Shown piece after piece: positions 30,573 to 57,097 of a stretch of DNA of 64,000 nucleotides (position 1 is its first letter; the number at the start of each line of letters is the position of its first letter). The translations under genes and the position numbers were made by a program. The DNA is from Candidatus Saccharimonadia bacterium (lineage in GTDB: Bacteria > Patescibacteriota > Saccharimonadia > UBA4664): positions 69,183 through 133,182 of the forward strand of contig JBGTMQ010000008.1 of NCBI GenBank assembly GCA_041743505.1, read 5' to 3'. The notes beneath the pieces are model-generated. The model was not told where the DNA came from and ran no database searches. It was given only the letters and a program-made list of their open reading frames with translations.

Positions 30573-31073
30573 ATGGCGATTGTTGAGCAACCCAAAGAAT
30601 TTGAAGAAAAAGTCATTAATATTGACCGCGTCGCCCGCGTAGTCAAAGGGGGCCGCCGGTTCCGCTTCCGCGCCACGGTAGTGGTAGGAGATGGCAAAGG
30701 CCGGGTTGGCGTCGGCGTCGGCAAAGGTTCCGAGGTCATGACTTCAATTGCCAAGGCTGTATCACGAGCCAAGAGCCAAATGATCACCGTGCCCCTCAAA
30801 GACCATACCATCCCGCACGAGATTCAGGTCCGTTTTTCCGGCGCCCAAGTACTACTCAAGCCTGCCTCGCCCGGAACCGGCGTCATAGCCGGCGGTGCGG
30901 TTCGCAATGTAGTTGAGGTAGCAGGCATCCGTGACCTCTTGACCAAATCGCTCGGGAGCAGTAATAAAGTAAATAACGCTTATGCCACGGTTGTAGCGCT
31001 ATCACAGCTTAAAGCCGCCCCGGTCAAGGCCAACAAAAAGGCCGCAGCTGTTACCGAAGAAATAGCGGCTTAG
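30573..31073 (+). CDS. rpsE: 30S ribosomal protein S5
   Basis: [37 protein letters not shown]. Confidence 0.95.
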
Positions 31074-31083
31074 GAAACGAATC

Positions 31084-31581
31084 ATGAAGATCCACGAATT
31101 AAGTCTCAAATCCGCCAAAGACCGCAAACGTATCGGTCGTGGTATTGGCTCAGGGTACGGCAAGACTGCCGGCCGAGGAACCAAAGGCCAAAATGCCCGG
31201 ACCGGTGGCGGTGTCCGTATCGGCTTCGCCGGCGGTCAAAACCCATTGGCTAAGTTGCTCCCTAAAAAGCGCGGCTTCAAAGCCATTTTCCCGGTAACAA
31301 ACCAGGTGGTCAGCATCGGTCAACTCGACCGTCTCAAGGATGGCGCCACGATCGACAACGAAGCCCTGGCTAAAGCCGGCTTCATCAAGAAGGCTGACGA
31401 GCGCGTCAAACTGCTCTCCGGCGGCGAACTGACCAAGAAACTGACTGTTAAAGTACAGGCAGCTAGCGCAGCCGCAAAGTCCGCCGTCGAAAAAGCAGGT
31501 GGCACATTTGAGCTAACAGAACTTCCGAAGGTTGCTAGCAAAAAAGCCACTCGTAAAACAGAAGATACCTCTGCCTCATGA
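31084..31581 (+). CDS. rplO: 50S ribosomal protein L15 (directly follows S5; no L30 gene between)
   Basis: GRGIGSGYGKTAGRGTKGQNARTGGGVRIGFAGGQ. Confidence 0.95.
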   Translation: MKIHELSLKSAKDRKRIGRGIGSGYGKTAGRGTKGQNARTGGGVRIGFAGGQNPLAKLLPKKRGFKAIFPVTNQVVSIGQLDRLKDGATIDNEALAKAGFIKKADERVKLLSGGELTKKLTVKVQAASAAAKSAVEKAGGTFELTELPKVASKKATRKTEDTSAS

Positions 31582-41019: not shown

Positions 41020-41094
41020 GCCGACGTAGCTCAACGGTAGAGCAACAGTTTTGTAAACTGTAGGTTGCGGGTTCGATTCCTGTCGTCGGCTCCA
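41020..41094 (+). tRNA. tRNA-Thr (anticodon UGU), CCA encoded
   Basis: Acceptor GCCGACG/CGTCGGC, anticodon stem ACAGT/ACTGT with loop TTTGTAA, T-loop GGTTCGATTCC. Confidence 0.7.
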
Positions 41095-41196
41095 GAAGTT
41101 GTAATTATACTCTCTTCCACCACTAGCTTTCATTCAGTCTTTATCAAGGGTCTTATTAGTATTCTCGAGCTGCCGGACCCTACCCCCGAGCAGCTT

Positions 41197-42102
41197 GTGG
41201 CCGTTACCACCAGTGCCATCGCCTTAGGCAACCATACCCTCCTAGACAGAGCCCGAAAACTTATCACACCCCGTCTCCAGTCCACAGCAATCAATACCTC
41301 AAGCGAAGACTTTCAGGTACTCAGGCATATCTTCGCCGCTTCAGACCCATTCGCATTGGTGCATCATCGCACCACACCGGCTGGCTTCGGGCTCCAGTAT
41401 AACGAGCTTCGAAGCTTCCGTCCCCGGCGCGAGTCCACTACTGCAACACCAACTGTGCACCGGCCATTCGAACCAGCAAAATTCAATTTTACACACATTT
41501 CAGGAGAGCGGTACTGGCAGGGAAGCTTTGGGAACAAACTGCTAGCTTGCTACTACAACAAGTATCCGTTTGCGCCATACCATACTTCACTTGTACCGGA
41601 TCCAGACAGCGACCATGAGCAGTTTCTAACTCAACCTTACCATGAACTAGCCTGGAATTTCCTACAAGCACTGGCCGGTGAGCAGCCAAAGGCCGTGCTC
41701 GGCTATAACTCTCTTGGCAGTTATGCCTCCATTAACCATCTCCACTTTCAACTCGTAGCTGATGGGCACAAGCTCCCGTTGTTGCACTCAAAGAACCTTA
41801 CTACCTATCCCATACCGGTAACCGAGCACCAAAACATCCAAACTGCTTGGCGTCAGATAGCTCACTTACAAGCCACTCAGCAGCCGTTTAATCTCATCTA
41901 TAGCGCCGGCCGGATGATTGTCATTGAACGGCAATTCCAGGGCACCTACCCACAACCAAACTGGACCACCGGCTTTGCCTGGTATGAATTATGCGGCGGC
42001 ATTATCACGGTCAGCGAGGACGCGTTCGATCGTATCACCGACGACGATATCACAACCGCCCTACAAACCACAGTTTCCGTGGCTAAAGCCTTGTCCAGTT
42101 AA
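41197..42102 (+). CDS. hypothetical protein; possible HIT-superfamily GalT-branch (HxHxQ) nucleotidyltransferase/phosphorylase
   Basis: INHLHFQLV (H-phi-H-phi-Q). The track ORF (41065) overlaps the tRNA and has no ATG after the tRNA end; GTG at 41197 was chosen tentatively. Confidence 0.4.
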   Translation: MAVTTSAIALGNHTLLDRARKLITPRLQSTAINTSSEDFQVLRHIFAASDPFALVHHRTTPAGFGLQYNELRSFRPRRESTTATPTVHRPFEPAKFNFTHISGERYWQGSFGNKLLACYYNKYPFAPYHTSLVPDPDSDHEQFLTQPYHELAWNFLQALAGEQPKAVLGYNSLGSYASINHLHFQLVADGHKLPLLHSKNLTTYPIPVTEHQNIQTAWRQIAHLQATQQPFNLIYSAGRMIVIERQFQGTYPQPNWTTGFAWYELCGGIITVSEDAFDRITDDDITTALQTTVSVAKALSS

Positions 42103-42145
42103 GCAGTTTGTTATACAATAGCCAGGTTAAAAACCAAATTAACCG

Positions 42146-42231
42146 GCCGGGTTACTCAAGTGGCCAACGAGGGCTGACTGTAAATCAGCTGGCATTAGCC
42201 TTCGGGAGTTCGAATCTCTCACCCGGCACCA
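42146..42231 (+). tRNA. tRNA-Tyr (anticodon GUA), long variable arm, CCA encoded
   Basis: Acceptor GCCGGGT/ACCCGGC, anticodon stem GCTGA/TCAGC with loop CTGTAAA, T-loop GGTTCGAATCT. Confidence 0.7.
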
Positions 42232-42311
42232 TATCAAACATTGTGTATACAACAGACTGATGCAGTGCAAGGAATGACGAAGCAATGCGCAGGCTGTTGG
42301 AGACACGCTAA

Positions 42312-42386
<75 letters not shown>

Positions 42387-42411
42387 TGAACAATAAGGAA
42401 TTATCAAGACT

Positions 42412-42609
42412 ATGAAACGGCTTGTACGAAGCGAAAAGGATAAAAAAGTTGCAGGTTTATGCGGCGGTATTGCCGAATACGCCGATATTGACCCAACTGT
42501 CGTTCGTCTTATTGTATTAACCGTTATCATCATGAGCGGCGTCCTGCCTGGTATCTTACTGTATGCAGTGGCCGCCGCTATCACCCCCAAAGAAGGAGAA
42601 GTAAAATAA
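42412..42609 (+). CDS. PspC-domain small membrane protein
   Basis: KKVAGLCGGIAEYADIDPTVVRLIVLTVIIMSGVLPGILLYAVAA matches the PspC domain consensus. Confidence 0.7.
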   Translation: MKRLVRSEKDKKVAGLCGGIAEYADIDPTVVRLIVLTVIIMSGVLPGILLYAVAAAITPKEGEVK

Positions 42610-42771
42610 ATGCCTAAACGTAACCGGCCATTCGTGGCTTTGGAGTGCACAAGTTGCCATAACCGCAACTACACCACCTCCAAAAACCCCAAAAACACCA
42701 CCGATCGCCTAGAACTCAACAAGTTCTGCAAGCACGAGAAAAAAGTTCTGGTTCACAAAGAAACCAAATAA
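42610..42771 (+). CDS. rpmG: 50S ribosomal protein L33 (below the ORF-track size cut-off)
   Basis: [53 protein letters not shown], with the C-x2-C...C-x2-H pattern of L33. Confidence 0.8.
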
Positions 42772-42920
42772 TCTCTCCGCATCAGCGGATATAAAGTATG
42801 GGGCCTGGCTTCCAAAGGAGCCAGGCCTTTGTGGTCAACAGAACTCCAGACAGTATCTACTTAGCATGGACGCAAGTCACTACCCTAAGTATACTAACCG
42901 TAATAACATGAGCCTCATCC

Positions 42921-43871
42921 ATGGCCGAAAACCTCCAGCCAACTAGCGAACAAGAGCCAGACACCGGCTTTCCCCAAGCCGCCAAGCTACTAGCCGGCCT
43001 AAATGAAGCACCTCGACCGGCAATCCCCATGCCGCGTGCACCAAAAAAACGCCCGGAACTGCAACAGATTGATTTAGCCAACAAGCTCAGGCCAATCTAC
43101 CAGGAAGGAACTCAGTCAGAGCACGGCCATAACGAGCCACAAATACAAGAGCTGGCCGAACAGTACCAACTCAAATACCCCAACGAGCTTGAGGCTATCA
43201 CCATCCTCACTAATGTGCAGTCTTTCCTCGAACTCACCCAGCGTGTCAAAGATCCAGAACTCAAGCGGGAAGAAAAAAAGCCGCTTTTCAAGGAATTAAC
43301 CGAATATCAGTACCTTTGGACGCATTTTGTCATTACCAACTCTGACAAAACCCGGGTCATGGAGGACTTCTGGGAGGCTACCCACCGTATTGCCGAATCA
43401 GCCGGCTATGCAGAACCAGCCCGGGCATACCAATCCGGCATTATCACAGCCGCCGCCACCTATCAGATCTTTGAAGCTCTCGGCAAACAGCCACAATTGT
43501 CGCACCCTGCCGAGGACGCCTATGATGCAATTGATCTTTGGATTGACGAAACCAATCAACCCGTCCAAATCAAAAAAAGTAACGCGTCAGAAGTCGAAAT
43601 CGAAAAAACCGAAGACATAGAATTCCCTGCCCTAGAAGTAGCCGGCCCAGCCGGCCACACGCAGCATTTTGCCATCGAACAGCCAAACAGGGAACAGATC
43701 CAATTCAAGATGAACATCAAGCGATACGCCGAGCGTGTCGGTCATCCCGTGGATGGCTATTTTATACGCGTACCGTATGGACAGGTTGATTCCACCACCG
43801 GAAAACCGACACCAGAGCTAATCGAGCAAGTCCGCGCCAAACTCGCCGCCGAGGAACCCGAAGCAGCTTAA
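42921..43871 (+). CDS. hypothetical protein (316 aa)
   Basis: ORF track only. Confidence 0.45.
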   Translation: MAENLQPTSEQEPDTGFPQAAKLLAGLNEAPRPAIPMPRAPKKRPELQQIDLANKLRPIYQEGTQSEHGHNEPQIQELAEQYQLKYPNELEAITILTNVQSFLELTQRVKDPELKREEKKPLFKELTEYQYLWTHFVITNSDKTRVMEDFWEATHRIAESAGYAEPARAYQSGIITAAATYQIFEALGKQPQLSHPAEDAYDAIDLWIDETNQPVQIKKSNASEVEIEKTEDIEFPALEVAGPAGHTQHFAIEQPNREQIQFKMNIKRYAERVGHPVDGYFIRVPYGQVDSTTGKPTPELIEQVRAKLAAEEPEAA

Positions 43872-43921
43872 ACTCGACTAAGCCGCTTAAATTAAGTACA
43901 ATAAGCCGGTCATAACCATTT

Positions 43922-43997
43922 AGGGGTGTAGCTCAGTTGGTAGAGCACCGGTCTCCAAAACCGGGTGTCGTAGGTTCGAGTCCTATCACCCCTGCCA
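43922..43997 (+). tRNA. tRNA-Trp (anticodon CCA)
   Basis: Acceptor AGGGGTG/CACCCCT, anticodon stem CCGGT/ACCGG with loop CTCCAAA, T-loop GGTTCGAGTCC. Confidence 0.75.
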
Positions 43998-44681: not shown

Positions 44682-45251
44682 ATGGTCAAATTTGAGCCTG
44701 TACCTTCAGCTTCCAAACCCAAGTGCTATAGGATGGAGACACTAATACCTACAAGTACTGCCAATACACTTAAAACAATCCGCGACCTAGAAGGAAACAA
44801 TGTTACAGAAGTTGTTCGCAAAGTAGTAAGTATGTACAAATGGTATGACGACTGCAGAATAAACGGGAACCTTCTCATAGCCGCCCAACCACAGCAGCTA
44901 GAGGTGCTTGAGCCACCGGCCACCGTTAAGACCGGTGAAAATGAAGAACATGCAAAATTGTCCATCAAGGTAAGTCCAAGTATAAAGAGCTGTCTTGAGG
45001 TATTAATACCAGATGACCTCATGGATGAATCCGGTTTCTGGAAGGCAGCTGTTGTTTTTTATAGTTCCCTCATGGAAAAACAGCTTCTTGGCTCAAAATT
45101 CTATTGCATAGCCCCGGGTTTATCAGTCAGTCAATTTCACTTGGATGATCCTTTTGCGTCTGACAATAGTGCTCCAACAACCTTCGTTGAATGGAGATGG
45201 CTTAATCTTGATTTTGTGAGACGCCTATTCCGCAAGAAGCCACCTGGATAA
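44682..45251 (+). CDS. hypothetical protein (189 aa)
   Basis: ORF track; low-GC region. Confidence 0.4.
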   Translation: MVKFEPVPSASKPKCYRMETLIPTSTANTLKTIRDLEGNNVTEVVRKVVSMYKWYDDCRINGNLLIAAQPQQLEVLEPPATVKTGENEEHAKLSIKVSPSIKSCLEVLIPDDLMDESGFWKAAVVFYSSLMEKQLLGSKFYCIAPGLSVSQFHLDDPFASDNSAPTTFVEWRWLNLDFVRRLFRKKPPG

Positions 45252-45477: not shown

Positions 45478-45855
45478 ATGTCGGATATCGAAACATTTTA
45501 CTACAACGCAGCAGCCAACGGCGTCGATTTCAAAGGGCACTGGGCAAGCATCATCCGGTGCTTTATCGTAGAGCCCCTCAGATTCGAAGCCCTGGTCGGG
45601 ACTGACGGACAAGTCAAATGGAAGGCACTCATGGAGCTCGGTCTCCTCGGTGCGCCCAGAAAGATCCGGCACCGGCACGGGTGGCACTTCCGCCCCTTCA
45701 CGACGACAGAAGTCGAAGCCATTTGCAGCTTATTCGCCGGTGGCGAAACAGTCCTCGGCCTTCACGCCCCAATCGACTTCTTCCACGGCCAGGACCGAGC
45801 CGTCTTCGGCAACCCCCTCGCGGGTACGGGCTTAATCCTACCACGTAACAACTAG
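45478..45855 (+). CDS. hypothetical protein (125 aa)
   Basis: ORF track only. Confidence 0.35.
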   Translation: MSDIETFYYNAAANGVDFKGHWASIIRCFIVEPLRFEALVGTDGQVKWKALMELGLLGAPRKIRHRHGWHFRPFTTTEVEAICSLFAGGETVLGLHAPIDFFHGQDRAVFGNPLAGTGLILPRNN

Positions 45856-46101: not shown

Positions 46102-49100
46102 ATGTTTCGATTGAGAAGCGTCCGGCGACTCGTACGTCAAAGTTCTATGGCTGCTAGTCGCCTTTTAAGTATAAAATTAATAGCAGCCTTGAAAGAACAT
46201 AAATTCAAGCAACCGGTAATTCATCTTTCAACAAACCCGTTTAGGGCGATATTAACACGCAACACCCTCAATATACTTGCCGTTGGCGTATTTTTTCTCA
46301 ATATTACCGCCATAGGTATTCCGGGCCTTATGGCCCAGTGGCAGGAGAAGGAGGCCCGAACGCCTCAAGCTCTTCAAGCTACGGATAATGATTTTGCTGC
46401 AGCCGCAGACGGCGCTAGTACCTCAAATAAGGCGTTAAAACTCGATAAAGCCGTAACAGATGAACTCGATAAGACGCGAGAAGAACTCATTCATGGTAAG
46501 GCAAAAAAGAATCCTAAACGCGTAAAAATGCTCGAAGAAGACCGTGACGTCAACTCCCGCGTTTTCTTAAATGACGATGGCTCAAAAACCCTAGAGAAGA
46601 GCACCTCTGCCACCAGTTACCGTGACAGCTTAGGCAAATGGAAAGACGTGGATGTCTCACTTGAGAAGGATTCGGTTAAAAATGAATGGAGTACAAAATC
46701 CAACTCCTGGAAGGCAACTTTTAAGGAAGCCAACGCTGAAACTGCAGTTGAATTATCACGTGGGGCACAAACTGTCCGCATTGCACCGGTAGGAGGCCAA
46801 AAGGTCAAGCCGACAGTAACTGGTAATGCGCCAAAACAATTAGTTACTTATAAAAACGTCTGGCCTGACGTCGATTTGCGTTACGTAGTAAATGGCTCGT
46901 CAGTAAAAGAGAGCATTTGGATTAAAGCGCCAACACAGCAAACAGAGTTTCAATTCAGCGTTAAAGGAGGCAACCTTTCGCCAAAGCCCGGTGAAACTGG
47001 CCGCTACAGTCTTGATGGGGAACTGTCTGATTTCACTCTCACGCGTTCATTTGTTGCCACAGCCGATCAGGGCATAGTGGGGGATGACGGATATATTACA
47101 CAGGATGTAAAACAAAACAGCATAATCCTAAAACTTAACCCGGAGTGGATTAAGCAGCAACCTGCTAAAGCATATCCGGTTGTCATTGATCCTTCCTTTA
47201 CTAGCTACACAACCGCACAAAACCATATGTCCTTTAAATCTGATGGCTGGTCATGCAACGCGCTCGACTGCGGAATAGGCACTGGCTACACAGGATCTCA
47301 CCAGTGGCGTAGTATAGCCTGGTTTCCCTATGACACCCTGGGACAAGCACCCACTAAGCACCTCACCAGCGCACAACTGTACTTGGAGATGGTTGACCCG
47401 GGAGTGATCAGCTACCCGGGTACCTATGACCCAAGGACAATCTCAGTCTATAAAGGCCAACGCGGCAGTAATGGTCATTATAATATAAACAGCGGCGTAA
47501 CTGATTATGGCATGGGTAGTGGCTCCATAGGGTACAACGGCACTATTGACGTTACAACTATATATCGCAATGCAATTGCAAATGCCGACTGGGGTATGCA
47601 TCTGTTCTTTGTTGGTGATGAAAGTCAGTATTCATACAAATTTAAGACATATCCAGATGCAAAGGTAACGTTTACCTATACTCACTCGCCGGGAGCCGCC
47701 ACACTCGAAGCACCCACAGATAAAGCATCTGTAGTTACGTCTCAACCTGTACTAAAAGCGAGCACCGCCACTGACCCCGATGGAGATCCGGTGCGGTACC
47801 GCTTTAAAGTGGCCACCAGTCCTGATGCCGAAGGTGGTACGGTAGTGAATTCGGGCTGGCTAGACACTCCGCAATGGACTGCTCCGGATGGCTCACTACA
47901 GGATGGAATGACATACTATTGGAAAGTTCAAACGTGGGACGGACTGTACATTAACTCATTTGGTACAGCAGGCTCCTGGAGCACCAGTTCAATCAGATCG
48001 TTCCGGGTTGATATGCGTAAAGGCAAAGACAATACTCAGGCCTATGACGCTGTCGGACCAATTAATGTCGATCTTGCTACAGGCAATCTAACAACAGGAA
48101 CAAAGAGCCACAGCATAGCTGCGCTTGGTGGTTCACTCGGCGTGAACCTGGACTACAACTCACCTCAGCGTTCACGCCCGGGCCTGATAGGTAAGTATTG
48201 GAATAATCCCACGCAGGCCGCAACATTCCCATCATCCTCAACCGCAGCTAGCGTAGAGCGGGTTGATGGCGTGGTTGACTTTAACTGGGGCAGCGGTTCG
48301 CCCGAGCCGGCCACTGTAACCACGGATAATTTTCTTGTCCGCTGGTCAGGTTATTTTGTAGCGCCGCAAGCTGGCACATATCAATTCGGAACCACCAGCG
48401 ATGATGGTGTACGCATTTACATCAATGACCTCAACACGGCATATGTTGATCAATGGAGTACTAGCCCAAGTAACATATATGGCGCAAGCGTGACGCTCGC
48501 GGCTGGTCAAGTAATTCCAGTTAAATACGAGTACCGTGAAGTCGGCGGACTGGCAAATACCAAGTTTCTCGTAAAAACGACTGATAGCTCTATTACTGCG
48601 CAACCTATACCAACTTCATGGCTGCAAACCGGCACACGATCTGTGGCGGTAGAACATGGACTCACTGGACGATACTTCGCCTACACAGGAGACAATCCGC
48701 CCGCCTCTCCATCAGATAGTGATCCAAGCCTATTCCTCAAACGCACAGATAGCAGCCCGTCATTCTATTGGAATAGTGCGGCCCCGGTATCTGGCGGGCC
48801 AACAGACAGGTTCTTGGTTCGTTGGACAGGTTATTATACGCCGGATGTGACAGACTCCTACCGATTCCGGATTGCAGCCGATGATGGCGTACGCATGTGG
48901 GTGAATAATCTTATTACGAACACGCAAGTTATTAACGACTGGGCAGATAATCCAGGCACGCGTGAGCAAGCCACGCCTATTTCACTAACCGCAGGGCAGT
49001 CCTATCCCGTTACAATCGAGTATTATGAGCACATTGGTAGCGCCATTTTCGACCTGCAATATAAAGGTTCCGATGGGATTTCTAAGGCCGTTCCATCTAA

Positions 49101-52100
49101 GTTGCTTAGCCCTAAGGTTCAAACGTTGCCCGACGGCTGGACGCTTGGTGGCGATATAAAGGGTGATCTGCCCTACGACTTTGCCCATATCGGCGCAAAT
49201 TCGGCAGTTCTCCAGGACACGAATGGTGAGTCGCATGAGTATAAGTGGACTGGCGCATCATACATTTCTCCTCCGAACGAAGACGGGCAGTTAACGCGTA
49301 ATGATGATGGCACCCTAACACTGCAGGCTGGCGATGGTCGCACCTACATCTTCGGGACAGATGGCAAGCTTTTGTCATCAACCTTACCAGCGGATGACAA
49401 AAATCCAGCTGCCGTTCAATACGAATATGGCCTGACGCCTTCTCGTCTCACTAAAATCAAGGACGGCATCAATCTTAACCGTTACGCTGAGTTGATTTAT
49501 GCTGGTGATAGCCGTTGTCCAAGTGCGCCAAGCGGATTTGTTGGAGCCAATGGCACAATGCTGTGCGCCGTCGTAACAACCGACGGCTCAACCACTACTC
49601 CGACAGATGCTAACATAACAAAGTTCTTCTATAGCGCCGACACCGGCGGCAACAAGCGTTTAGCCCGAGTAGTATCACCCGGAGCCGAGACAAGCGACTT
49701 CTCATACCTCACGGAGGATATTAACTCGCCAAACTCATGTTCTGGTTGTCTAAGTCAAATCCGCGACGCGATTGCAAATGACGCTGTAGCAGCAGGTGAA
49801 CGGTCACAAGACGCCACCGTAATGACTGAAATTGCATATGACGCGTTAGGACGAGTTATGAGCATAACTGGCCCAGCGGCACAGGCCGGGATAGCTCGAT
49901 TGGCCCACACTTACGAGTATCAAGCTGGCCACACGAAACTTCATACTACTGGCGCCACGGAGCCTAATGGCTTTACCCGGAAGGTTACATATGACAGCAC
50001 GTATAGGACGACAGAGGACCGCGATGCAGCCAATGTAGCTACATCAACCGAATGGGATGCTGGTAAAGACCAGGTTTTGTCATTAACGGATGGCGCTGGG
50101 CTTAAGAGCACAACGCATTACGACTACGCCGACCGGATAACCGACCAGTACGGCCCGGCCCCGGCCGGTTGGTTCGATATGACTCCTGGTACGAATTATA
50201 ATAAGCCTTCATCGGGCTATATCAATCAGATCCCACGTAAGCAAGCCAGCTATGACGAGGGCATTAACGGCCTCGCTGCCTCGTACTACACTTATAGCAC
50301 TAGCAGCAAAGCTCTAACGGGCGCGCCTAAGGGGCACCAAACAGGCATCGGCGGCACCGGCGGTGACGTAAATAAAAACTGGGCCGGCACGGCTCCATTC
50401 ACCACTTCATCACCATGGGGTGCGCGATTAACCGGCGATATCCTGTTGGGCGCAACCGGTAACTATACCTTCCGCATAGCCAGCGATGATGGAGTGCGGC
50501 TCTGGATTGACGATAAGCTCGTCATCAATGACTGGGCTGACGGCAGCTACCGCTCACATACCCAGCTCACAGGTGTGACAGTCAATAATGACACAGCCAA
50601 TAAGTACCATCGCATTCGCCTCGATTATTACAATAAAAGTAGTTCGGAGTCAGATGCGCAACTAGTGCTCTATATGACACCGCCAGGCGGCTCGGAGCAA
50701 TCCGGGCTCGGCAGTATTCTTGTTCCTCGCTATGGACTCGCAACAACTGCTAAAAACTACGACTCCTCCAGTAGCGTAGGTGATACTACCATCGCGACTA
50801 ACTACGGGAACAACCCAGAGCTAGCACTGCCGCAGTCTAAGACGGTTGATCCCGGAACGGGCACATTGAATCTTGCTAAAACCGCTAGCTATGAAACTCA
50901 GGGCGCAACCGGTAGTTACTTACGTCAACTCGGCACTGTACTGCCAGGCGGAAGTTCAACGAGTTATGGCTACTACTCGGCCACGGAAGTAAAAGATAAC
51001 CCTTGCACAACTGGCATTACCGAAACGTATGTGCAGGCCGGCATGATGAAGCTAAAGACACAGCCAGATCCTGATGGAGCCGGCTCTCAGGTCGGACGAA
51101 AATCGGAATCCATATATGACAATGCAGGACGAATAGTTGCCGCTCGTTACAATGCCGATTCATGGACATGCACAACCTATGACAACCGCGGCCGAGTAAC
51201 CCAAGTCTCAGTACCGAGCATAAATGGTCAGCCCGGCCGGACCATCACAACGAATTGGGCCGTAGGCAGCAATCCATTTGTAACCAGTATCACCGATAAC
51301 AACGGAACGGTAACTACAACTTCAGACTTATTAGGCAGAACAGTCATCTATCAGGACTCTCTCGGTACCTGGACCGACTACTCATACGATAGCCAAGGCC
51401 GCTTGATCAGTAAGGATAGCGATATGGGCTTAGAAGAGTTCGTCTATGACAGCTATAACCGGCTAACTGCGCAGAAGCTTGATGGCACAACGCTCGCAGT
51501 ACCGACGTATGATGCTTATAGCCGCATCACGAGCGTGACCTATCCGACGGCTGGGGCACAAGCTTTATCCATCTCACGGAATGACCATGGTCGCACCACA
51601 GGCTTAGATTACACCCTTGGCAACGGGTCAACGCACCTAACCGATTCCATTACACGTAGTCAATCTGGCAAGGTTGTAGGCGGTACAGAGTTAGGCCAGA
51701 CTAAGAGTTACACTTATGACAAAGCAGGCCGCCTTACGGCTGCGACTATCGGTTCGAACCAATTTACCTATAATTTCGGAGCCCCCACTGGCTGCTTAGG
51801 CGCCTATAACGCCGATGCGGGCAAGAACGCCAACCGTATAAGTATGAGTAAAACCGTAGGCGGAGTAACTACATCTACTTCTTACTGCTATGACTATGCT
51901 GACCGGTTGATCCAAAGTTCAGACTCCAACGCTGTAGACCCAGCCTATGACTCACATGGAAACCTCATAAATATGGGAACTTCGTGGAATGGCAAGTACA
52001 CGCAGTTCGCATATGACTCAAGTGATCGCAATATTGGTGTTCTTCAAAACTGGGGCAATGATTACGATATATATTACAACCGTGACGTTCAAAATCGCAT

Positions 52101-53166
52101 AACCTCAAGATTCGTTGCAGGCCTCAGTACAAGCTCAACCTGGTATGGTTTCACAGGTGCCAGTAGTGCGCCCGCCTTTACTCGAAATGCCAATTGGGAT
52201 ATTACAGAGAAGTATATGTCGCTCCCTGGCGGCGTACTATTAACCGTACGTCCCGGCCAAACTGGTGATAACCAAAAAGTATTCTCACTTCCCAACACTC
52301 ATGGTGATGTGATGGCTACCACCAACACGAGCGGCAACCAAACTGGTACGTTTAGCTACGATCCGTTTGGACAGACCCTAAGCTCAAGCATACCCGACAA
52401 TGCAGCAGGAGATGTCTCATTTGCTTGGGTTGGCCAACATCAAAAAGCCACTGAAGCAGATTTGGCGCTTAGGCCGATCCAGATGGGAGCTAGGGTGTAC
52501 ATTCCTTCACTTGGGAGATTCTCGAGCACAGACTCTGTAGAGGGTGGTGCCGAGAACGCCTATGTCTACCCTCCCGATCCAATTAATCTGTACGATATCG
52601 ATGGGAAGAACACGGCAGAGGAGGCCCTGGATGGTATAGGCGCCAGCGCAAATAGTGTTGGCTGGAAACTCGACGCACTCATGGTGGCCGTAGGTGTCGC
52701 ATGTGTAGCCAGCGGAGTCGGGGTAGTCATTTGTGGCGTAGGAGCCGCAACCGGTCTAGTTGTAACGACGGCTCAAGCATACAACAAGCACAATCGAGAT
52801 CCTGGCGCTGCAGCTGGAGAATTATTTCTATCAAGTATTTTCTGGGCAGCAGGTGGACCAATAGCTAAAAACATTGCTAAAATCAGCATCTCCTACATTG
52901 CTCCTGTCATTGCGCAGCGAGTAAAGCAGGTGGCGCCCGCAACGCCAATACGTGCAATTAATCGAACAGTGGCTACTGCAAAGCAGACTATACGGAACTC
53001 AATAGGTTATGCTGCAACCCTGTACGATGCGGCACGCCATATACCAGCTGCAAATCGGAACTATAATTATGGTGGAACACCCTATATGACAAGCCCATGG
53101 AGCGGGTATGCGGAGGTAAAAGAAATGATTCTGAAACACTTGGCTAATACGTGGAGAAGGGTATAA
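46102..53166 (+). CDS. giant polymorphic toxin: N-terminal signal-anchor, three PA14 domains, RHS/YD-repeat shell, RHS core ending DPINL, C-terminal glycine-zipper toxin domain
   Basis: GGAGG RBS. PA14-like segments start at ~48181, ~48658 and ~50269, each with the FLVRW(S/T)GY...DDGVR(I/M/L)(Y/W)(I/V)(N/D)(D/N) pattern. Many YD repeats ([29 protein letters not shown]...). RHS core tail ...[39 protein letters not shown] at ~52480-52605. The C-terminal 186 aa contain [26 protein letters not shown]. Confidence 0.9.
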
Positions 53167-53484
53167 ATGCGAATCTTTCCGGATAGATCCAGAAACTATA
53201 AAATCAAGGGGTGTGTTTGTGGAGAAACCAATGAGTCACTCAAGGTAAATAAGAACATGTATCATAATACGATCTTTCTATCTCTACTTAGTGTCCCGGT
53301 TATTCTGGGCTTTCCATGGGTAAGCCTGCACACTGATTTAGGTACAAAAGGTATAGTTGCCTGGGGGCTGATTCTAATTGTCTTGGGTTTTTATACATAC
53401 GGTACTACAAAGTTACTTGGTAAAGGCCATTCCTTGTTATGCTCTGTTCGACGAACAATGATTAATTTTGGAGCATTAACCTAG
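53167..53484 (+). CDS. putative cognate immunity protein (two-TM, CxCG...GHxLLCxxRR family), paralog 1
   Basis: Start abuts the toxin stop (TAAATG). MRIFPDRSRNYKIKGCVCGE..., two hydrophobic helices, ...GKGHSLLCSVRR. Confidence 0.65.
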   Translation: MRIFPDRSRNYKIKGCVCGETNESLKVNKNMYHNTIFLSLLSVPVILGFPWVSLHTDLGTKGIVAWGLILIVLGFYTYGTTKLLGKGHSLLCSVRRTMINFGALT

Positions 53485-53504
53485 GCACCAAATAACAGAT
53501 GTGA

Positions 53505-53888
53505 AGCACTGGCTCACACGACAATACGTCCGATGGCGCATTTGTAGGTGAGGCTGGGCTGGGCCTACTATTTCTTGGACTAGGCGGGGAAGGAGCAAAA
53601 CAAATAGCTAAGATAACAATAAAGCCCATCGCAGCCAAAATAGCTCAGACAGCTCGCCAAGTTGCACCAAAGATAACCATAAACAATAAGGTTGTCGCCG
53701 TAAAGCAGCGCATCCAATATACAATTGGATATGGTGCAACAATAACAGATACATTACGTCAGATCTGGCCCAGCAAGCCGGTTTATAACTATGGTGGTAC
53801 GCAGTATATGACAAGTCCTTGGAGCGGCTTAGCGCAAGCAAAGGAAGTCATTATGAAATACTTAGCTAAGGCGTGGAGCGGGGCTTAG
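53505..53888 (+). pseudogene. orphan, start-less toxin C-terminal cassette paralogous to the last ~105 aa of the 46102-53166 toxin
   Basis: Frame-0 translation ...GGEGAKQIAKITIKPIAAKIAQTARQVAPKITI...[35 protein letters not shown] aligns with the toxin end ...[29 protein letters not shown]...[35 protein letters not shown]. No start codon; the frame is bounded upstream by a stop at 53502-53504. Confidence 0.7.
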
Positions 53889-53889
53889 A

Positions 53890-54217
53890 ATGCAAATATT
53901 CCCAAATCGCAAAAAAAAAGCAAAGCGTTACTTCATGTATTTGTGGGCGGTCTAACGAAATGCAAAAGATAAATAAAGCGAAATATCACAATATGACCCT
54001 ATTAATCAGTATGGGCCTAGTTGGTTACCTAGGTGCATTAGTGATTTTCCCGATGTTACTGCAGTCGCCCCGAGGTGTTACTACGAGAGGATGGATTGCC
54101 TTCGCCATAGGCACTTGCATGGTAGCGTATCTGATCTTCCTTGTCAGAAAAAATACAAAGCAGGGCCACAAATTACTTTGTTCAATGAGAAAATCCATGT
54201 TTCAGCTTGCGAGTTAG
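53890..54217 (+). pseudogene. immunity-family paralog 2 interrupted by a frameshift in an A9 homopolymer (53911-53919)
   Basis: ATG at 53890 reads MQIFPNRKKK, then hits a stop after 21 codons. The -1 frame continues ...KQSVTSCICGRSNEMQKINKAKYHN...QGHKLLCSMRKSMFQLAS. Removing one A restores a 108-aa paralog. The track's intact ORF needs a GTG at 53873 inside the preceding cassette. Confidence 0.6.
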
Positions 54218-54264
54218 CCGAGCACTCCTAAGTGCTCAATGTAGCGAGCACCACTTACACTAAG

Positions 54265-54543
54265 ATGAAAATATTTCCCCTCCCTTTAACGAAATATCCT
54301 CTAGACAAGGCGCTCAAAGAGATTAAGTTGTTCTTGGCCATTGGTTATTCAATACTTGCCTTAACGGTGTTCGTAAGCATATTCTTCGCATTGCCTGCGA
54401 TGGTGGTATGCGGTCGTCCGCTCGTATTGTGCTTTAATCCCGCTGTCAAAAAGCATCCAGATGGTAAAAAATACATGACTGCGAGTGTTGTGTTAGCGGT
54501 CCTATCGGTTCTATGCTTTGTGGTGTATCTAATAGTCAAGTAG
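54265..54543 (+). CDS. small two-TM membrane protein (MKIFP... N-terminus, distinct core), putative immunity paralog 3
   Basis: Internal Met start MKIFPLPLTKYP chosen by analogy with the paralog N-termini. Two hydrophobic helices. Lacks the GH.LLC motif. Confidence 0.45.
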   Translation: MKIFPLPLTKYPLDKALKEIKLFLAIGYSILALTVFVSIFFALPAMVVCGRPLVLCFNPAVKKHPDGKKYMTASVVLAVLSVLCFVVYLIVK

Positions 54544-54593
54544 CATTCTCCGCACACTACTTACATTTATATAAAGTTTAAGCAGCTGATAAC

Positions 54594-54914
54594 ATGAAAT
54601 TTTTCCCAGACCGTTCAAAAAAATATAAGCTAAAAAAATGTGTATGCGGGAAAGAAACCGAAAATGTCAAAGTTAACAGGAGCATATATCATAACGTAAT
54701 TCTATTTACGATAATTGGCGTTTTCGGTTTCCTTCTCTTGACCGTAATCAGTTTCTATACTCCGTTGCCTACTGATTCATGGATTGCCTGGCTGATTATG
54801 GCAGCAATACTTAGCTATGATGGATGGCAACTGTGGGTTAATACCCAACAGGGACATAATTTATGGTGCGCACTGAGAAGGGTCATGATAAGTGTTGCAG
54901 GAGCTAAAGACTAG
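54594..54914 (+). CDS. immunity-family paralog 4
   Basis: MKFFPDRSKKYKLKKCVCGKETE..., two TM helices, ...QQGHNLWCALRR. Confidence 0.65.
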   Translation: MKFFPDRSKKYKLKKCVCGKETENVKVNRSIYHNVILFTIIGVFGFLLLTVISFYTPLPTDSWIAWLIMAAILSYDGWQLWVNTQQGHNLWCALRRVMISVAGAKD

Positions 54915-54994
54915 AAAGACTCACAGAATACTTGAGCTTACAGCTATGATAATATTTTCTCATGCTTGCCAGACATCGAAATAACTAGCTCGAC

Positions 54995-55420
54995 ATGAAT
55001 AGCCCTGAAATTCTTGGCTGGATTATTTTTTGGCTTGGAACGTTGTTATTCACGGTCTTCTGTATTTATATTGCACTTCGAATAAAGGGTAACAAAGATC
55101 GTGAGTACACCGTTCGCCCCTGTATTTGCGGTCGCCGCGCCCCCTCAATCAGTTTATTCGCAGGCAATGGTTCAGGCTGGGCCGGATTCATCATTCTATA
55201 TAGCCTAATGGCGATATTACCCGCATTGTATATCGTAGACGCAACGAGTTTTATGCTGATTGAGATCCCCTGGTATTTATGGTTATCCTTGGCCCTATAC
55301 CTGTCAGGAGGTCTTGTCCCCCTTATTAAGTTCATCACTTGGGGCCATTCGCTATTGTGCGCATTACGCCGGGGACTTCTTGGCCTCGTATGGTTTTTTC
55401 ATTACAGCCACAAACACTAG
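54995..55420 (+). CDS. immunity-family paralog 5 (extra N-terminal TM helix)
   Basis: ...RPCICGRR... then TM helices and ...WGHSLLCALRR. Confidence 0.55.
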   Translation: MNSPEILGWIIFWLGTLLFTVFCIYIALRIKGNKDREYTVRPCICGRRAPSISLFAGNGSGWAGFIILYSLMAILPALYIVDATSFMLIEIPWYLWLSLALYLSGGLVPLIKFITWGHSLLCALRRGLLGLVWFFHYSHKH

Positions 55421-55522
55421 ATCCAATAGCCTTTGCGCTGTATCTAGCAGCCAAGTACACATTCGCGTGCCTGTACATGCGGCATATCAAAGGAAAAGCT
55501 TCAACGAAACCGGGCAATACTG

Positions 55523-55741
55523 GTGTTACAAAGTGGCTTGTTTATTATTGCTCTTCCAATAATACTTTCGCTGCTTATCTTTCTCGACTGGAGAGAAATG
55601 CTAAGTAAACTTTGGTTCGCCTACATATTCACGGCCGGGGAAGTCATTGCGCTCGTAATAATCGCTAGACGCTATCGACGCAAGCGTCATGGAACAATCT
55701 GCGCGCTACGCCGCGCACTTATCGCTATGTCGCCCAGATAA
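55523..55741 (+). CDS. immunity-family paralog 6 (short, C-terminal motif only)
   Basis: Two hydrophobic helices then RHGTICALRRAL. Confidence 0.45.
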   Translation: MLQSGLFIIALPIILSLLIFLDWREMLSKLWFAYIFTAGEVIALVIIARRYRRKRHGTICALRRALIAMSPR

Positions 55742-55810: not shown

Positions 55811-57097
55811 GTGGATGACTCCGCAACGACCGAACTCATTCGGTTAAACGCACTATGCGGCAAAAATATTGGTGCCTACATGAACCAAGTCCGCCGCATC
55901 CCATTCCTCATCCCTCAACTACAACAGGACCTAGCCACCATAGCCCAGGAAGGAGTTGAGGCCGAGGAAAGCCTGGAGAAGTGCCTCAAGGGCAAGCGCA
56001 CATTGACATCAGCCCAACGAAAAAGCCAATGGTACACTCGGCTTCAACGCCAAATCATCGCAGGCAAAGAGGCCCAAATCCGCCTGGTCTACCATAATCT
56101 GCGCTTCGCAGCCTACTTTGCCCGCCATTCCATGGGCTGGAAACAGCATTCCGATGATGAGTTCATTACTGAGCTGAACTTTGGAAAACCACGTGGTGGA
56201 GCGCCGCTACACACCCTGGATATGTTTGCGGGCAATTCATTGCCCCTGGAAGATAGGATACAGGTAGGCAATCTGTCGCTCATCAAGTCAGCCGGCAAGT
56301 ATCAACCATATTGCGGCGAGAGGATAGACCCGGTCACCGGAGCAAAAACCACCAAGCCCATCGCCAAATTCACGACCTATGCCGCCCATAACCTCTACGA
56401 TATGCTCCACCGGGCGTTTATGGTCGAAAAGTACCGTGACGGGCTATCACTCAGCTTGGCCAGAAGTATGCACCAAATGCAGGCAGCACGTAAAAAGCTC
56501 CGACGGCTCACAGGCTACGAGCCGTCCATCAATGAACTGGTGGACGACACCGATCTTGGTTACAAAGCCGTCGAATTTCGTCTCGAGGAGGAATTTGGAT
56601 GTCCCAACACCACGCTGGAAGAGCTAGCCACCACCACCTGGGTCCACGACCTCGCCACCAACGCCCGGCTGGGCCTGGCGGACCTGCTCTGGGATGACAC
56701 CATCCTGGACCCGCACGACACGCTCATCGAGCTTGATCTGCTAGATAGCATAGAGCGGGTTCTGGGCACCCTGTCAGAGCGCGAAGCCGGCGTAATTGCC
56801 TTGCGGTTTGGGCTTCGCGATGGCGAGTGCCGGACACTGGATGAGATTGGTTATGTCTATGGCGTAACCCGCGAACGCATCCGCCAAATCTTGGGCCACA
56901 CCATGACATTGCTTCGCCACCCGTCGCGAAGTAATCAATTGCGCAACCACTGGTGTGAGCAAGACCCGCTCGAAGAGCGCGATGAGCGCCGCGAAGCCAA
57001 GGAACGCCGCGACCGTACCATCACGCTCCTCTCGCATCCGCATCTCTACCCGGACACCATTAAGCCAATAGCCAAGCACAGGGCTAAGGCCAAATAG
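55811..57097 (+). CDS. sigma-70 family RNA polymerase sigma factor, highly divergent with insertions in region 2
   Basis: Region 1.2-like YMNQVRRIPFLIPQLQQDLA. Region 2.1/2.2 IRLVYHNLRFAAYFARH ... DRIQVGNLSLIKSAGKY. Region 2.3/2.4 FTTYAAHNLYDMLHRAF. Region 4 LSEREAGVIALRFGLRDGECRTLDEIGYVYGVTRERIRQILGHTM. Basic/acidic C-terminal tail. Confidence 0.75.
   Translation: MDDSATTELIRLNALCGKNIGAYMNQVRRIPFLIPQLQQDLATIAQEGVEAEESLEKCLKGKRTLTSAQRKSQWYTRLQRQIIAGKEAQIRLVYHNLRFAAYFARHSMGWKQHSDDEFITELNFGKPRGGAPLHTLDMFAGNSLPLEDRIQVGNLSLIKSAGKYQPYCGERIDPVTGAKTTKPIAKFTTYAAHNLYDMLHRAFMVEKYRDGLSLSLARSMHQMQAARKKLRRLTGYEPSINELVDDTDLGYKAVEFRLEEEFGCPNTTLEELATTTWVHDLATNARLGLADLLWDDTILDPHDTLIELDLLDSIERVLGTLSEREAGVIALRFGLRDGECRTLDEIGYVYGVTRERIRQILGHTMTLLRHPSRSNQLRNHWCEQDPLEERDERREAKERRDRTITLLSHPHLYPDTIKPIAKHRAKAK

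What the first reader, a model, noticed from the sequence alone, without database searches (positions are those of the whole stretch)
53167..55741. Array of six small two-TM proteins; four or five share a split Cys/His motif (CxCG at N-terminus, GHxLLCxLRR at C-terminus)
Paralogs 1, 2, 4 and 5 share a 'C(V/I)CG' element before two TM helices and a '(Q/K/W)GH.L(L/W)C(S/A)(V/M/L)R(R/K)' element after them. Paralog 6 keeps only the C-terminal element; paralog 3 has only the shared MKIFP N-terminus. Most share an MxIFPDRS N-terminus. For a helical hairpin both elements lie on the same side of the membrane, so they could form one three-Cys/one-His metal site. Immunity-gene arrays downstream of RHS/CDI toxins are well known, but I do not recognise this motif combination.
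Basis: partly seen in the sequence, partly recalled or inferred. Interest (0 to 1): 0.7.

Follow-up and report, generated by a model that had tools for sequence, protein, structure and literature searches.

The report
Membrane immunity proteins with split Cys/His motif
Downstream of a giant RHS toxin gene, probably in a Saccharibacteria genome, lie five diverged copies of an undescribed ~100-residue membrane protein family; its three cysteines, one histidine and one arginine never vary, and it is most likely a new kind of toxin-immunity protein held together by a metal site.

Summary
In 75 sequences (about 70 database clusters at 50% identity plus the window copies), C-x-C before two membrane helices and H-x3-C-x2-R after them never vary.

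- Copy 6 does encode the CxCG element, but no start codon precedes it.
- Copy 2 starts with MQIFP and is frameshifted by an A9 run.
- Copy 5 has a third helix.
- "Paralog 3" belongs to a different small two-helix family that recurs in related RHS loci.
- The 390-nt gap after copy 1 holds an orphan toxin-tip fragment, 50% identical to the RHS C-terminal tip (CT). The layout is therefore toxin–immunity–orphan toxin–immunity, followed by extra immunity genes.

A homologous toxin tip in an unrelated metagenome is also followed directly by a family member. Distant members follow other PA14-RHS toxins. RHS relatives are mostly Saccharimonadales MAGs.

The AlphaFold2 model (pLDDT 88.5) puts CxCG in a β-hairpin loop and H/C at the start of a C-terminal helix. 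Charge bias puts both on the cytoplasmic side.

There is no match in Pfam, NCBIfam, PADLOC, PHROGs or the PDB. My verdict is a new family of a known kind (two-helix immunity proteins). Neither the metal site nor protection has been tested.

The parts
46102..53166 (+). 2354-aa secreted RHS polymorphic toxin: N-terminal hydrophobic anchor, three PA14 domains, RHS/YD repeats and RHS-associated core
   Evidence: Pfam PA14 2e-61 (3 stretches) and RHS_repeat 1e-14. NCBIfam Rhs_assc_core 1.5e-11. 39% identical over 2051 aa to the L005 RHS.
52573..53166 (+). C-terminal toxin tip (CT) after the [11 protein letters not shown] motif: a ~35-residue Gly/Ala/Val/Cys-rich hydrophobic segment, then a helical region, then the [15 protein letters not shown] tail
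   Evidence: Hydrophobic 19-mers up to KD 2.53 at CT residues 31-66, net charge +6. No family hit. 40% identical to the CT on L041. The AlphaFold2 model is unreliable (pLDDT 41).
53167..53484 (+). Copy 1 (105 aa), presumed cognate immunity gene; its ATG directly abuts the RHS stop (TAAATG)
   Evidence: Family HMM 5e-30.
53505..53888 (+). Orphan toxin-tip fragment (127 codons, no start codon, stop codons upstream). It lacks the hydrophobic segment and matches the last ~120 residues of the RHS CT.
   Evidence: Translation. BLASTP 50% identity over 121 aa, E 2e-35. 100-nt direct repeat 53062-53161 / 53784-53883 at 77% identity.
53890..54217 (+). Copy 2: ATG 53890 (MQIFPNRKKK), then a +1 frame disruption at the A9 run 53911-53919, then the CICG...GHKLLCSMRK frame. 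It starts one base after the orphan CT's TAG.
   Evidence: The A9 run is identical in two independent Logan assemblies and is the longest homopolymer in the window. Gene callers skipped this gene.
54265..54543 (+). Copy 3 (92 aa from MKIFP): member of a second small two-helix family ('B'), not a paralog of the Cys/His family
   Evidence: hhalign probability 3.7% against the family. A profile of four B proteins from L005, L013, L020 and L023 scores it 25.6 bits, against a maximum of 8.1 bits in 500 shuffles.
54594..54914 (+). Copy 4 (106 aa), an intact family member with no adjacent toxin
   Evidence: AlphaFold2 model pLDDT 88.5.
54995..55420 (+). Copy 5 (141 aa), three-helix subfamily: an extra N-terminal helix and an FxHYSHKH tail
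   Evidence: Relatives are P0004, P0005, P0008, P0010, P0012 and others.
55448..55741 (+). Copy 6: the open frame encodes ACTCG...RHGTICALRR, but the first possible start (GTG 55523) lies after the CxCG. It is a 5'-truncated, probably defunct copy.
   Evidence: HMM 3e-19.

Best explanation
The array is a poly-immunity locus for a Sec-exported, surface-displayed PA14-RHS polymorphic toxin, probably in a Saccharibacteria (Patescibacteria) genome.

Shown:
- The RHS protein ends in a ~185-residue tip with a long Gly/Ala-rich hydrophobic segment.
- Five of the six small genes belong to one undescribed family of ~100-residue proteins.
- Their build is a basic N-terminal β-hairpin carrying C-x-C-G, two membrane helices, then a basic C-terminal helix that starts with G-H-x3-C-x2-R.

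Inferred:
- Both ends lie in the cytoplasm.
- The two Cys of the hairpin loop and the His and Cys on the first turn of the C-terminal helix bind one Zn(II), a knuckle-plus-helix arrangement as in treble-clef fingers. This clamps the two ends of the helical hairpin into a rigid unit.
- The variable membrane helices and outer loop recognise the cognate toxin tip in the membrane and stop it from inserting or assembling. This is as proposed for other two-helix immunity proteins, such as Tsi5 against the Rhs pore-former Tse5.
- Copy 1 protects against the resident toxin.
- The orphan tip plus copy 2 (frameshifted) is a displaced older toxin-immunity module.
- Copies 4 and 5 are orphan immunity genes against neighbours' toxins. 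Copy 6 is decaying.
For: Position and coupling:
- Copy 1's ATG abuts the RHS stop. Copy 2's ATG is one base after the orphan tip's stop. The conserved TGGAG in both toxin tails sits ~11 nt upstream of the immunity ATG.
- Similar abutting or overlapping junctions occur in L003 (ATGA), L038 (TGAATG) and L005.

Module duplication:
- The orphan tip is 50% identical to the RHS tip. There is a 77% DNA repeat.

Independent co-occurrence:
- L041: a tip 40% identical to the window's, followed by P0011.
- L005-L008: PA14-RHS followed by two family members.
- L020 and L021: a member right after the RHS. L012: a member after an orphan RHS tip.
- P0004 lies in a PA14-RHS locus.
- P0037 sits next to a soluble protein 46% identical to one in an RHS poly-immunity array.

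Metal site:
- C, C, H, C and R are invariant in 69-75 sequences that are otherwise ~19% identical per column.
- Spacing is fixed at 72±4 residues, and the flanks are positive.
- The AlphaFold2 model has pLDDT 88.5. CVCG lies in the loop between strands 10-14 and 24-28, and H88/C92 lie at the start of helix 90-103.

Other:
- The paralogs are only 19-36% identical to each other, as expected for diversified specificities.
- Analogy: Tse5/Tsi5 (PMC9637101), ExiCD orphan membrane immunity (PMC12744356), and the two-helix Imm-CdiI and Imm17 families (PMC3482391).
Against: - No functional data exist: protection, toxin activity and metal binding are all untested.
- The toxin tip has no recognisable family, and its model is unreliable (pLDDT 41). 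Membrane action is inferred only from its hydrophobic segment and from the immunity protein being membrane-bound.
- A similar hydrophobic segment follows the cleavage motif in RHS tips whose downstream genes are soluble or belong to other families (L009, L013, L023). It may therefore be a general entry module rather than the toxic part.
- Tips homologous to the L005 tip (L013, L023) are followed by family B rather than this family. The toxin-immunity pairing is therefore not one-to-one.
- Two divergent members (P0026, P0065) show no RHS gene nearby.
- Several supporting loci (L012-L021) were fetched through RHS homology, so they are biased towards toxin context.
Confidence: 0.65

Rival explanations
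1. They are immunity proteins, but they act from the cytoplasmic face. The toxin's hydrophobic segment only carries its C-terminal domain across the membrane. The invariant Cys/His/Arg cytoplasmic module of the membrane-anchored protein then captures that domain as it emerges.
For: The hydrophobic segment is shared by RHS tips with many different downstream genes, as expected of a generic entry module. The orphan fragment keeps only the C-terminal ~120 residues, yet is still paired with copy 2. The invariant Arg is not needed as a metal ligand.
Against: The cytoplasmic module is the invariant part, while the toxin tips differ (window type, L005 type, L020, L021). Specificity would be expected in the variable membrane helices and loop. 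No enzymatic fold or motif was detected in the tip.
Confidence: 0.15
2. The invariant Cys/His/Arg residues are not a structural zinc site. They form a catalytic or redox centre (a thiol-based enzyme or a Cu/Fe site) that chemically inactivates the toxin or modifies a lipid.
For: There are five invariant residues, including an Arg that a plain Zn site does not need. CxC motifs also bind Cu(I) (general knowledge).
Against: The cytoplasmic part is only ~45 residues, with no fold match. The hairpin-loop plus helix-start geometry and the H-x3-C spacing are typical of structural zinc sites such as treble-clef fingers and the ZAS Hx3Cx2C motif (general knowledge).
Confidence: 0.1
3. They are holin-like or release proteins that help export or liberate the toxin, as colicin lysis genes do, rather than immunity proteins.
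For: They are small two-helix proteins downstream of a toxin. There are weak sub-threshold hits to holin models (Phage_holin_8 E 0.053, Phage_holin_3_6 E 0.17, phrog_198 E 0.078).
Against: All hits are far below the curated cut-offs. The RHS protein has its own N-terminal hydrophobic export signal. Five diverged copies, an orphan toxin-tip/gene module and stand-alone tandem copies (L042) fit immunity, not release.
Confidence: 0.04
4. They are membrane-bound zinc anti-sigma factors (ZAS-like Hx3C motif) controlling the sigma-70-family gene immediately downstream (55811-57097).
For: A sigma factor gene follows the array (Sigma70_r4 5e-13). H-x3-C-x2-R resembles the ZAS motif Hx3Cx2C (general knowledge).
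Against: No sigma gene is adjacent to family members in L005, L012, L018, L020, L021, L037, L039, L041 or L042. There is no match to any anti-sigma Pfam or NCBIfam model. The third ZAS cysteine is an invariant Arg.
Confidence: 0.02

Closest known systems
Tse5 (Rhs pore-forming toxin) and Tsi5 of Pseudomonas aeruginosa (PMC9637101, PMC10684867)
   Same: An Rhs protein whose C-terminal tip has no enzymatic signature and acts on the cytoplasmic membrane. The immunity protein is a small integral membrane protein with two predicted helices, encoded next to the toxin.
   Different: Tse5 is delivered by a type VI system (PAAR/VgrG), whereas this RHS has an N-terminal export anchor and PA14 domains. 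No Cys/His motif is described for Tsi5. The host here is probably a Patescibacterium.
Imm-CdiI and Imm17, the two-helix immunity families of Zhang et al. 2012 (PMC3482391)
   Same: Two membrane helices, encoded beside polymorphic toxins or within poly-immunity loci. They are proposed to act at the membrane.
   Different: Imm17 is defined by WxW and an Arg between the helices, and Imm-CdiI only by hydrophobic residues. Neither has the CxC...Hx3CxxR signature. No Pfam hit to any Imm family appeared among hits with E<=1.
ExiC/ExiD membrane immunity to the glycine-zipper toxin EsxX of Staphylococcus aureus (PMC12744356)
   Same: Membrane proteins protect against a membrane-depolarising toxin arriving from outside. 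They also occur as orphan immunity genes without the toxin.
   Different: ExiCD are polytopic and act as a pair. The toxin is an LXG/T7SS substrate. No metal motif is described.
WapA/WapI of Bacillus subtilis (general knowledge)
   Same: A Sec-exported, wall-associated RHS/YD-repeat toxin in a single-membrane bacterium, with an immunity gene immediately downstream and variable tips.
   Different: WapA tips are tRNases and WapI is soluble. WapA has no PA14 domains.
Treble-clef zinc fingers and the ZAS anti-sigma motif Hx3Cx2C (general knowledge)
   Same: Two ligands come from a β-hairpin knuckle and two from the first turn of a helix. H and C are spaced i and i+4 apart.
   Different: Here the knuckle is CxC rather than CxxC. 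The two halves are separated by ~72 residues that form a membrane hairpin. The position of the third ZAS cysteine is an invariant Arg. Zinc binding is untested.

Membership tests
Polymorphic-toxin (RHS) immunity protein | Gene immediately downstream of, and on the same strand as, the toxin's variable C-terminal tip | tested here: met
   Copy 1's ATG abuts the RHS stop, and copy 2's ATG is one base after the orphan tip's stop. The same holds in L005, L020, L021 and L041.
Polymorphic-toxin (RHS) immunity protein | Homologous toxin tips are paired with homologous immunity genes in independent genomes | tested here: met
   Window tip against L041 tip: 40% identity over 157 aa, E 4e-29, followed by P0011 (32-35% identical to copies 1, 2 and 4). 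Caveat: tips of the L005 type are followed by family B in L013 and L023.
Polymorphic-toxin (RHS) immunity protein | Orphan toxin-tip/immunity modules and arrays of extra immunity genes | tested here: met
   Orphan tip at 53505-53888 plus copy 2. Copies 4 to 6 have no toxin. Tandem members occur in L042.
Polymorphic-toxin (RHS) immunity protein | Specific protection against the cognate toxin on co-expression | not testable with these tools
   This needs an experiment.
RHS/YD polymorphic toxin (the upstream gene) | RHS repeats, an RHS-associated core ending in a DPxG-type motif, and a variable tip | tested here: met
   PF05593 1e-14. TIGR03696 1.5e-11. '[11 protein letters not shown]' is followed by a 185-aa tip with no family.
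Imm17 (PF15562) / Imm-CdiI two-helix immunity families | Match to the family model; WxW and an Arg between the helices (Imm17) | tested here: not met
   No such Pfam hit at E<=1 for any copy. There is no WxW motif in the loop.
Structural zinc site (knuckle + helix, treble-clef-like) | Four invariant Cys/His ligands | tested here: met
   C, C, H and C are invariant in 69-75 sequences.
Structural zinc site (knuckle + helix, treble-clef-like) | The four ligands converge in space with tetrahedral geometry | tested here: inconclusive
   AlphaFold2 places CVCG in a hairpin loop and H88/C92 at a helix start, on the same side of the membrane. No coordinates were available, so no distances were measured. 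There is no PDB fold match.
Structural zinc site (knuckle + helix, treble-clef-like) | Stoichiometric metal binding | not testable with these tools
   This needs ICP-MS or a PAR assay on purified protein.
Holins | Match to a holin family above threshold; context of lysis genes | tested here: not met
   Best hits are E 0.05-0.17 at 12-14 bits, against cut-offs of 26-28 bits. phrog_198 E 0.078. There is no endolysin nearby.
Anti-phage defence proteins (PADLOC) | Match to a PADLOC model | tested here: not met
   No hits at E<=0.1.

The most novel reading that the evidence does not exclude
A family, possibly confined to Saccharibacteria and their relatives, of membrane immunity proteins built around a zinc site split across a two-helix membrane hairpin. 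The site is CxC on the N-terminal cytoplasmic hairpin and Hx3C on the C-terminal helix, with an invariant Arg. As far as I know, this would be the first metal-dependent membrane immunity fold. It may work together with a second small two-helix family (B, which follows it in three loci) as a two-part shield against membrane-inserting RHS tips used in epibiont-epibiont or epibiont-host warfare.
Probability: 0.35. Interest if true: 0.6.

Novelty: new variant of a known kind. Interest (0 to 1): 0.45.

Why it matters
Saccharibacteria and other Patescibacteria live attached to other bacteria, and almost nothing is known about how they fight or protect themselves.

This locus provides three things:
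- a defined toxin tip;
- its likely immunity partner;
- a diagnostic, easily mutated five-residue signature (C, C, H, C, R) that can be searched in metagenomes.

If the split metal site is real, it is a compact new way to lock a two-helix membrane hairpin. It would add a third, chemically distinct class to the few known membrane-embedded immunity proteins.

The finding also shows that poly-immunity arrays and orphan toxin modules, well known in Proteobacteria and Firmicutes, operate in what is probably a reduced-genome epibiont. Closely related RHS genes sit in genomes of Actinobacteria, the phylum that hosts Saccharibacteria.

It does not overturn current ideas, because the logic of the system is the established polymorphic-toxin logic.

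Tried and rejected
Searches that found nothing:
- Pfam, NCBIfam, PADLOC and PHROGs scans of all copies and of the toxin tip gave no significant family.

Tools that fell short:
- afdb50 was unavailable.
- Word-indexed homolog searches were nearly blind to this family: 5, then 4 hits. The search with the toxin tip returned nothing, not even the tip itself.
- Genome and metagenome scans with the three-helix subfamily patterns found nothing.
- The AlphaFold2 model of the toxin tip, built from two sequences, was unusable (pLDDT 41).

Ideas rejected:
- Copy 3 as a degenerate paralog.
- Anti-sigma and holin readings (see the rival explanations).
- A strict 'glycine zipper' label for the window tip. 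It has only three small-xxx-small-xxx-small motifs, none with two Gly, so I call it a Gly/Ala-rich hydrophobic segment.

Taxonomy:
- There is no synteny between the window flanks and the fetched Saccharibacteria loci.
- Taxonomy therefore rests on the RHS relatives and on the missing L30 gene.
Full report
**1. What is in the sequence**

They sit directly after a 2354-aa protein (46102-53166) that has three PA14 domains, RHS repeats and an RHS-associated core.

Copies 1, 2, 4 and 5 share C[VI]CG before two hydrophobic helices, and GHxL[LW]C[SA]xR[RK] after them. A regex for C.C...H...C..R over every ORF of the window matches only this array, five times. The array is AT-richer (GC 0.38-0.46) than its surroundings.

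**2. Corrections and additions**

- *Orphan toxin tip.* The 390-nt "gap" between copies 1 and 2 is not empty. In the frame that ends at TAG 53886-53888 it encodes 127 codons that are 50% identical (E 2e-35) to the last ~120 residues of the RHS protein. At DNA level, 53062-53161 and 53784-53883 form a 77% direct repeat. This is an orphan toxin tip: it has no start codon, it has stop codons upstream, and it lacks the hydrophobic segment of the full tip.
- *Copy 2.* It starts one base after that TAG, at ATG 53890 (MQIFPNRKKK). An A9 run (53911-53919) then throws the frame, and A8 would give an intact 108-aa member. The A9 run is identical in two independently assembled Logan contigs. It is the longest homopolymer in the 64 kb. 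Gene callers skipped this gene.
- *Copy 6.* Its open frame extends upstream of GTG 55523 and reads ...ACTCGISKEK..., so the CxCG element is encoded. No ATG, GTG or TTG precedes it. It is a 5'-truncated copy.
- *Copy 5.* It carries an extra N-terminal helix. It belongs to a three-helix subfamily with an FxHYSHKH tail.
- *Copy 3.* It is unrelated to the family (hhalign probability 3.7%). It matches a profile of four small two-helix proteins found in related RHS loci (L005, L013, L020, L023) at 25.6 bits, against a maximum of 8.1 bits in 500 shuffles. In three loci this family B follows a member of the Cys/His family (window, L005, L020).

**3. The motif defines a real family**

Word-indexed searches found almost nothing. 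The exhaustive profile search over 1.84 billion representatives found 70 proteins at E<1e-3 and 16 at E<1e-10. Most of them are 97-115 aa.

Findings from 75 aligned sequences:
- C-x-C is invariant in all 69 that have an N-terminus.
- H, C(+4) and R(+7) are invariant in all 75.
- Gly follows CxC in 59/69 and precedes H in 61/75.
- Mean column identity is only 19%.
- The CxC-to-H spacing is 72±4 residues.
- Mean net charges are +4.1 (N flank), -0.5 (inter-helix loop) and +4.0 (C flank). By the positive-inside rule, both motif halves are cytoplasmic.
- The three-helix variant adds one helix before the basic CxC segment, which keeps the motif on the same side.

AlphaFold2 on copy 4, using the 66-sequence alignment, gives pLDDT 88.5. 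The model has these elements:

| Element | Residues |
|---|---|
| β-strands (CVCG at 16-19 in the connecting loop) | 10-14 and 24-28 |
| Membrane helix 1 | 29-53 |
| Membrane helix 2 | 62-85 |
| C-terminal helix (begins just after H88; C92 on its first turn) | 90-103 |

This is the knuckle-plus-helix-start layout of treble-clef zinc sites (general knowledge), split here by a membrane hairpin.

**4. Genomic context elsewhere**

Contexts chosen through family membership:

| Member (locus) | Context |
|---|---|
| P0004 | 4 kb downstream of a 2326-aa PA14-RHS |
| P0033 and a P0038-like protein (L005-L008, four metagenomes) | directly follow a 2108-aa PA14-RHS that is 39% identical to the window's |
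| P0011 (L041) | directly follows a toxin tip 40% identical over 157 aa to the window tip |
| P0013 (L003), P0045 (L038) | abut or overlap an upstream ORF (ATGA, TGAATG) on very short contigs |
| P0009 | in an array of small genes |
| P0027 and P0017 (L042) | in tandem, with no toxin within 1.7 kb |
| P0037 (L043) | follows a soluble protein 46% identical to one in the L010 RHS poly-immunity array |
| P0026 (L037), P0065 (L039) | no RHS nearby; both are divergent members |

Contexts fetched through RHS homology are biased towards toxins. They show members right after the RHS in L020 and in L021 (a degenerate copy), after an orphan tip in L012, and 2 kb downstream in L018.

It is not met.

**5. 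The organism**

The RHS C-terminal region finds its relatives (46-50% identity) mainly in Candidatus Saccharibacteria/Saccharimonadales MAGs. In the window's ribosomal operon, S5 (30573-31073) is followed 10 nt later by L15 (31084-31581), with no L30 gene between them. A missing L30 is a hallmark of the Candidate Phyla Radiation (general knowledge).

A PA14-RHS "possible secreted toxin" with a neighbouring immunity gene was already noted in a rhizosphere Saccharibacterium (PMC6031116). The flanking genes show no synteny with the fetched loci, so the assignment is probable rather than certain.

**6. The toxin**

After [11 protein letters not shown], the tip has several features:
- a ~35-residue Gly/Ala/Val/Cys-rich hydrophobic segment (KD up to 2.5);
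- an overall positive charge, and a conserved tail ([15 protein letters not shown]);
- no family match, and an unreliable model.

Tips preceding family members in L005, L020, L021 and L041 have the same kind of segment. So do tips followed by other genes (L009, L013, L023). Whether the segment is the toxic element or an entry module therefore stays open. Tips of the L005 type are followed by family B alone in L013 and L023, so the pairing of tip types with the two small-protein families is not one-to-one.

**7. Mechanism**

The best-supported reading (confidence 0.65) is a poly-immunity locus.
- Copy 1 neutralises the resident tip.
- The orphan tip plus frameshifted copy 2 (plus copy 3) is a displaced older module.
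- Copies 4 and 5 are orphan immunity genes. Copy 6 is decaying.

The paralogs are only 19-36% identical, which fits diversified specificities.

I infer that the invariant cytoplasmic C2HC cluster is a structural zinc clamp joining the two ends of the hairpin. I also infer that the variable helices and loop bind the toxin in the membrane, as proposed for Tsi5 against Tse5 (PMC9637101), for Imm-CdiI and Imm17 (PMC3482391), and for ExiCD (PMC12744356).

The rival readings are:
- capture of the toxin at the cytoplasmic face;
- a catalytic or redox centre;
- holin-like release proteins;
- a ZAS-like anti-sigma factor for the sigma gene at 55811-57097.

The last two are disfavoured by their context in the other loci and by sub-threshold model scores.

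**8. Novelty and score**

The system logic (RHS toxin, adjacent immunity gene, orphan modules, poly-immunity arrays, two-helix membrane immunity) is established. Three things are new:
- the family itself;
- its five-residue invariant signature split across a membrane hairpin;
- its apparent home in Saccharibacteria RHS loci.

I rate it a new variant of a known kind, with interest 0.45.

Noticed in passing
window 53911-53919: An A9 run frameshifts copy 2, and A8 would restore it. It is the longest homopolymer in the 64 kb and is identical in two independent assemblies. Rescue by transcriptional slippage, or phase variation, is conceivable.
   Followed up: partly
window 54265-54543; L005 7854-8093; L013 8459-8752; L020 8962-9228; L023 2023-2271: A second undescribed family of ~80-90-aa two-helix proteins ('B': SKNPxKE...GR..L.F.P...YY) recurs in Saccharibacterial PA14-RHS loci. 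It follows a Cys/His-family gene in three loci and follows the toxin directly in L013. It could be a partner or an alternative immunity protein.
   Followed up: partly
L021 (Streptomyces sp. SID13031, NZ_JAAGLV010000030.1) and L011 (Allorhizocola rhizosphaerae): PA14-RHS genes 62% and 49% identical to the window's C-terminal RHS region sit in actinobacterial assemblies (locus GC 61-62%). L021 also carries a degenerate, frameshifted family member in which the invariant His is replaced by Ser. This suggests gene flow between Saccharibacteria and their host phylum, or mis-assigned DNA.
   Followed up: no
window 30573-31581: Ribosomal protein genes S5 and L15 are 10 nt apart with no L30 gene between them, as in Candidate Phyla Radiation genomes.
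   Followed up: partly
RHS tips in L009, L013, L020, L021, L023, L005, L041 and window 52660-52780: A ~35-residue Gly/Ala/Val/Cys-rich hydrophobic segment follows the DPxxxxDxxG motif in many Saccharibacterial RHS tips, whatever the downstream gene. It may be a shared membrane-entry module.
   Followed up: partly
window 55811-57097: A 428-aa sigma-70-family protein has a clear region 4 but only a weak region 2 match and a long divergent N-terminus. It lies immediately after the array, and the adjacency is not conserved in other loci.
   Followed up: no
L039 10001-11141 and L040: The divergent member P0065 is followed, with a one-base gap, by a 266-aa membrane protein in two unrelated contigs. 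It lies next to two Mtd_N (diversity-generating retroelement target) genes and has no RHS within 10 kb. This may be a different functional setting for the fold.
   Followed up: no
window 41020-43997: A cluster of four tRNA genes (Thr, Tyr, Thr, Trp) ends about 2 kb upstream of the RHS locus. Two small genes without any family match (44682-45251, 45478-45855) lie in between.
   Followed up: no
window 53145-53166 and 53867-53888: Both toxin tails end with ...W-(R/S)... encoded as TGGAG about 11 nt before the next gene's ATG. The toxin's last codons therefore double as a likely ribosome-binding site for the immunity gene.
   Followed up: no
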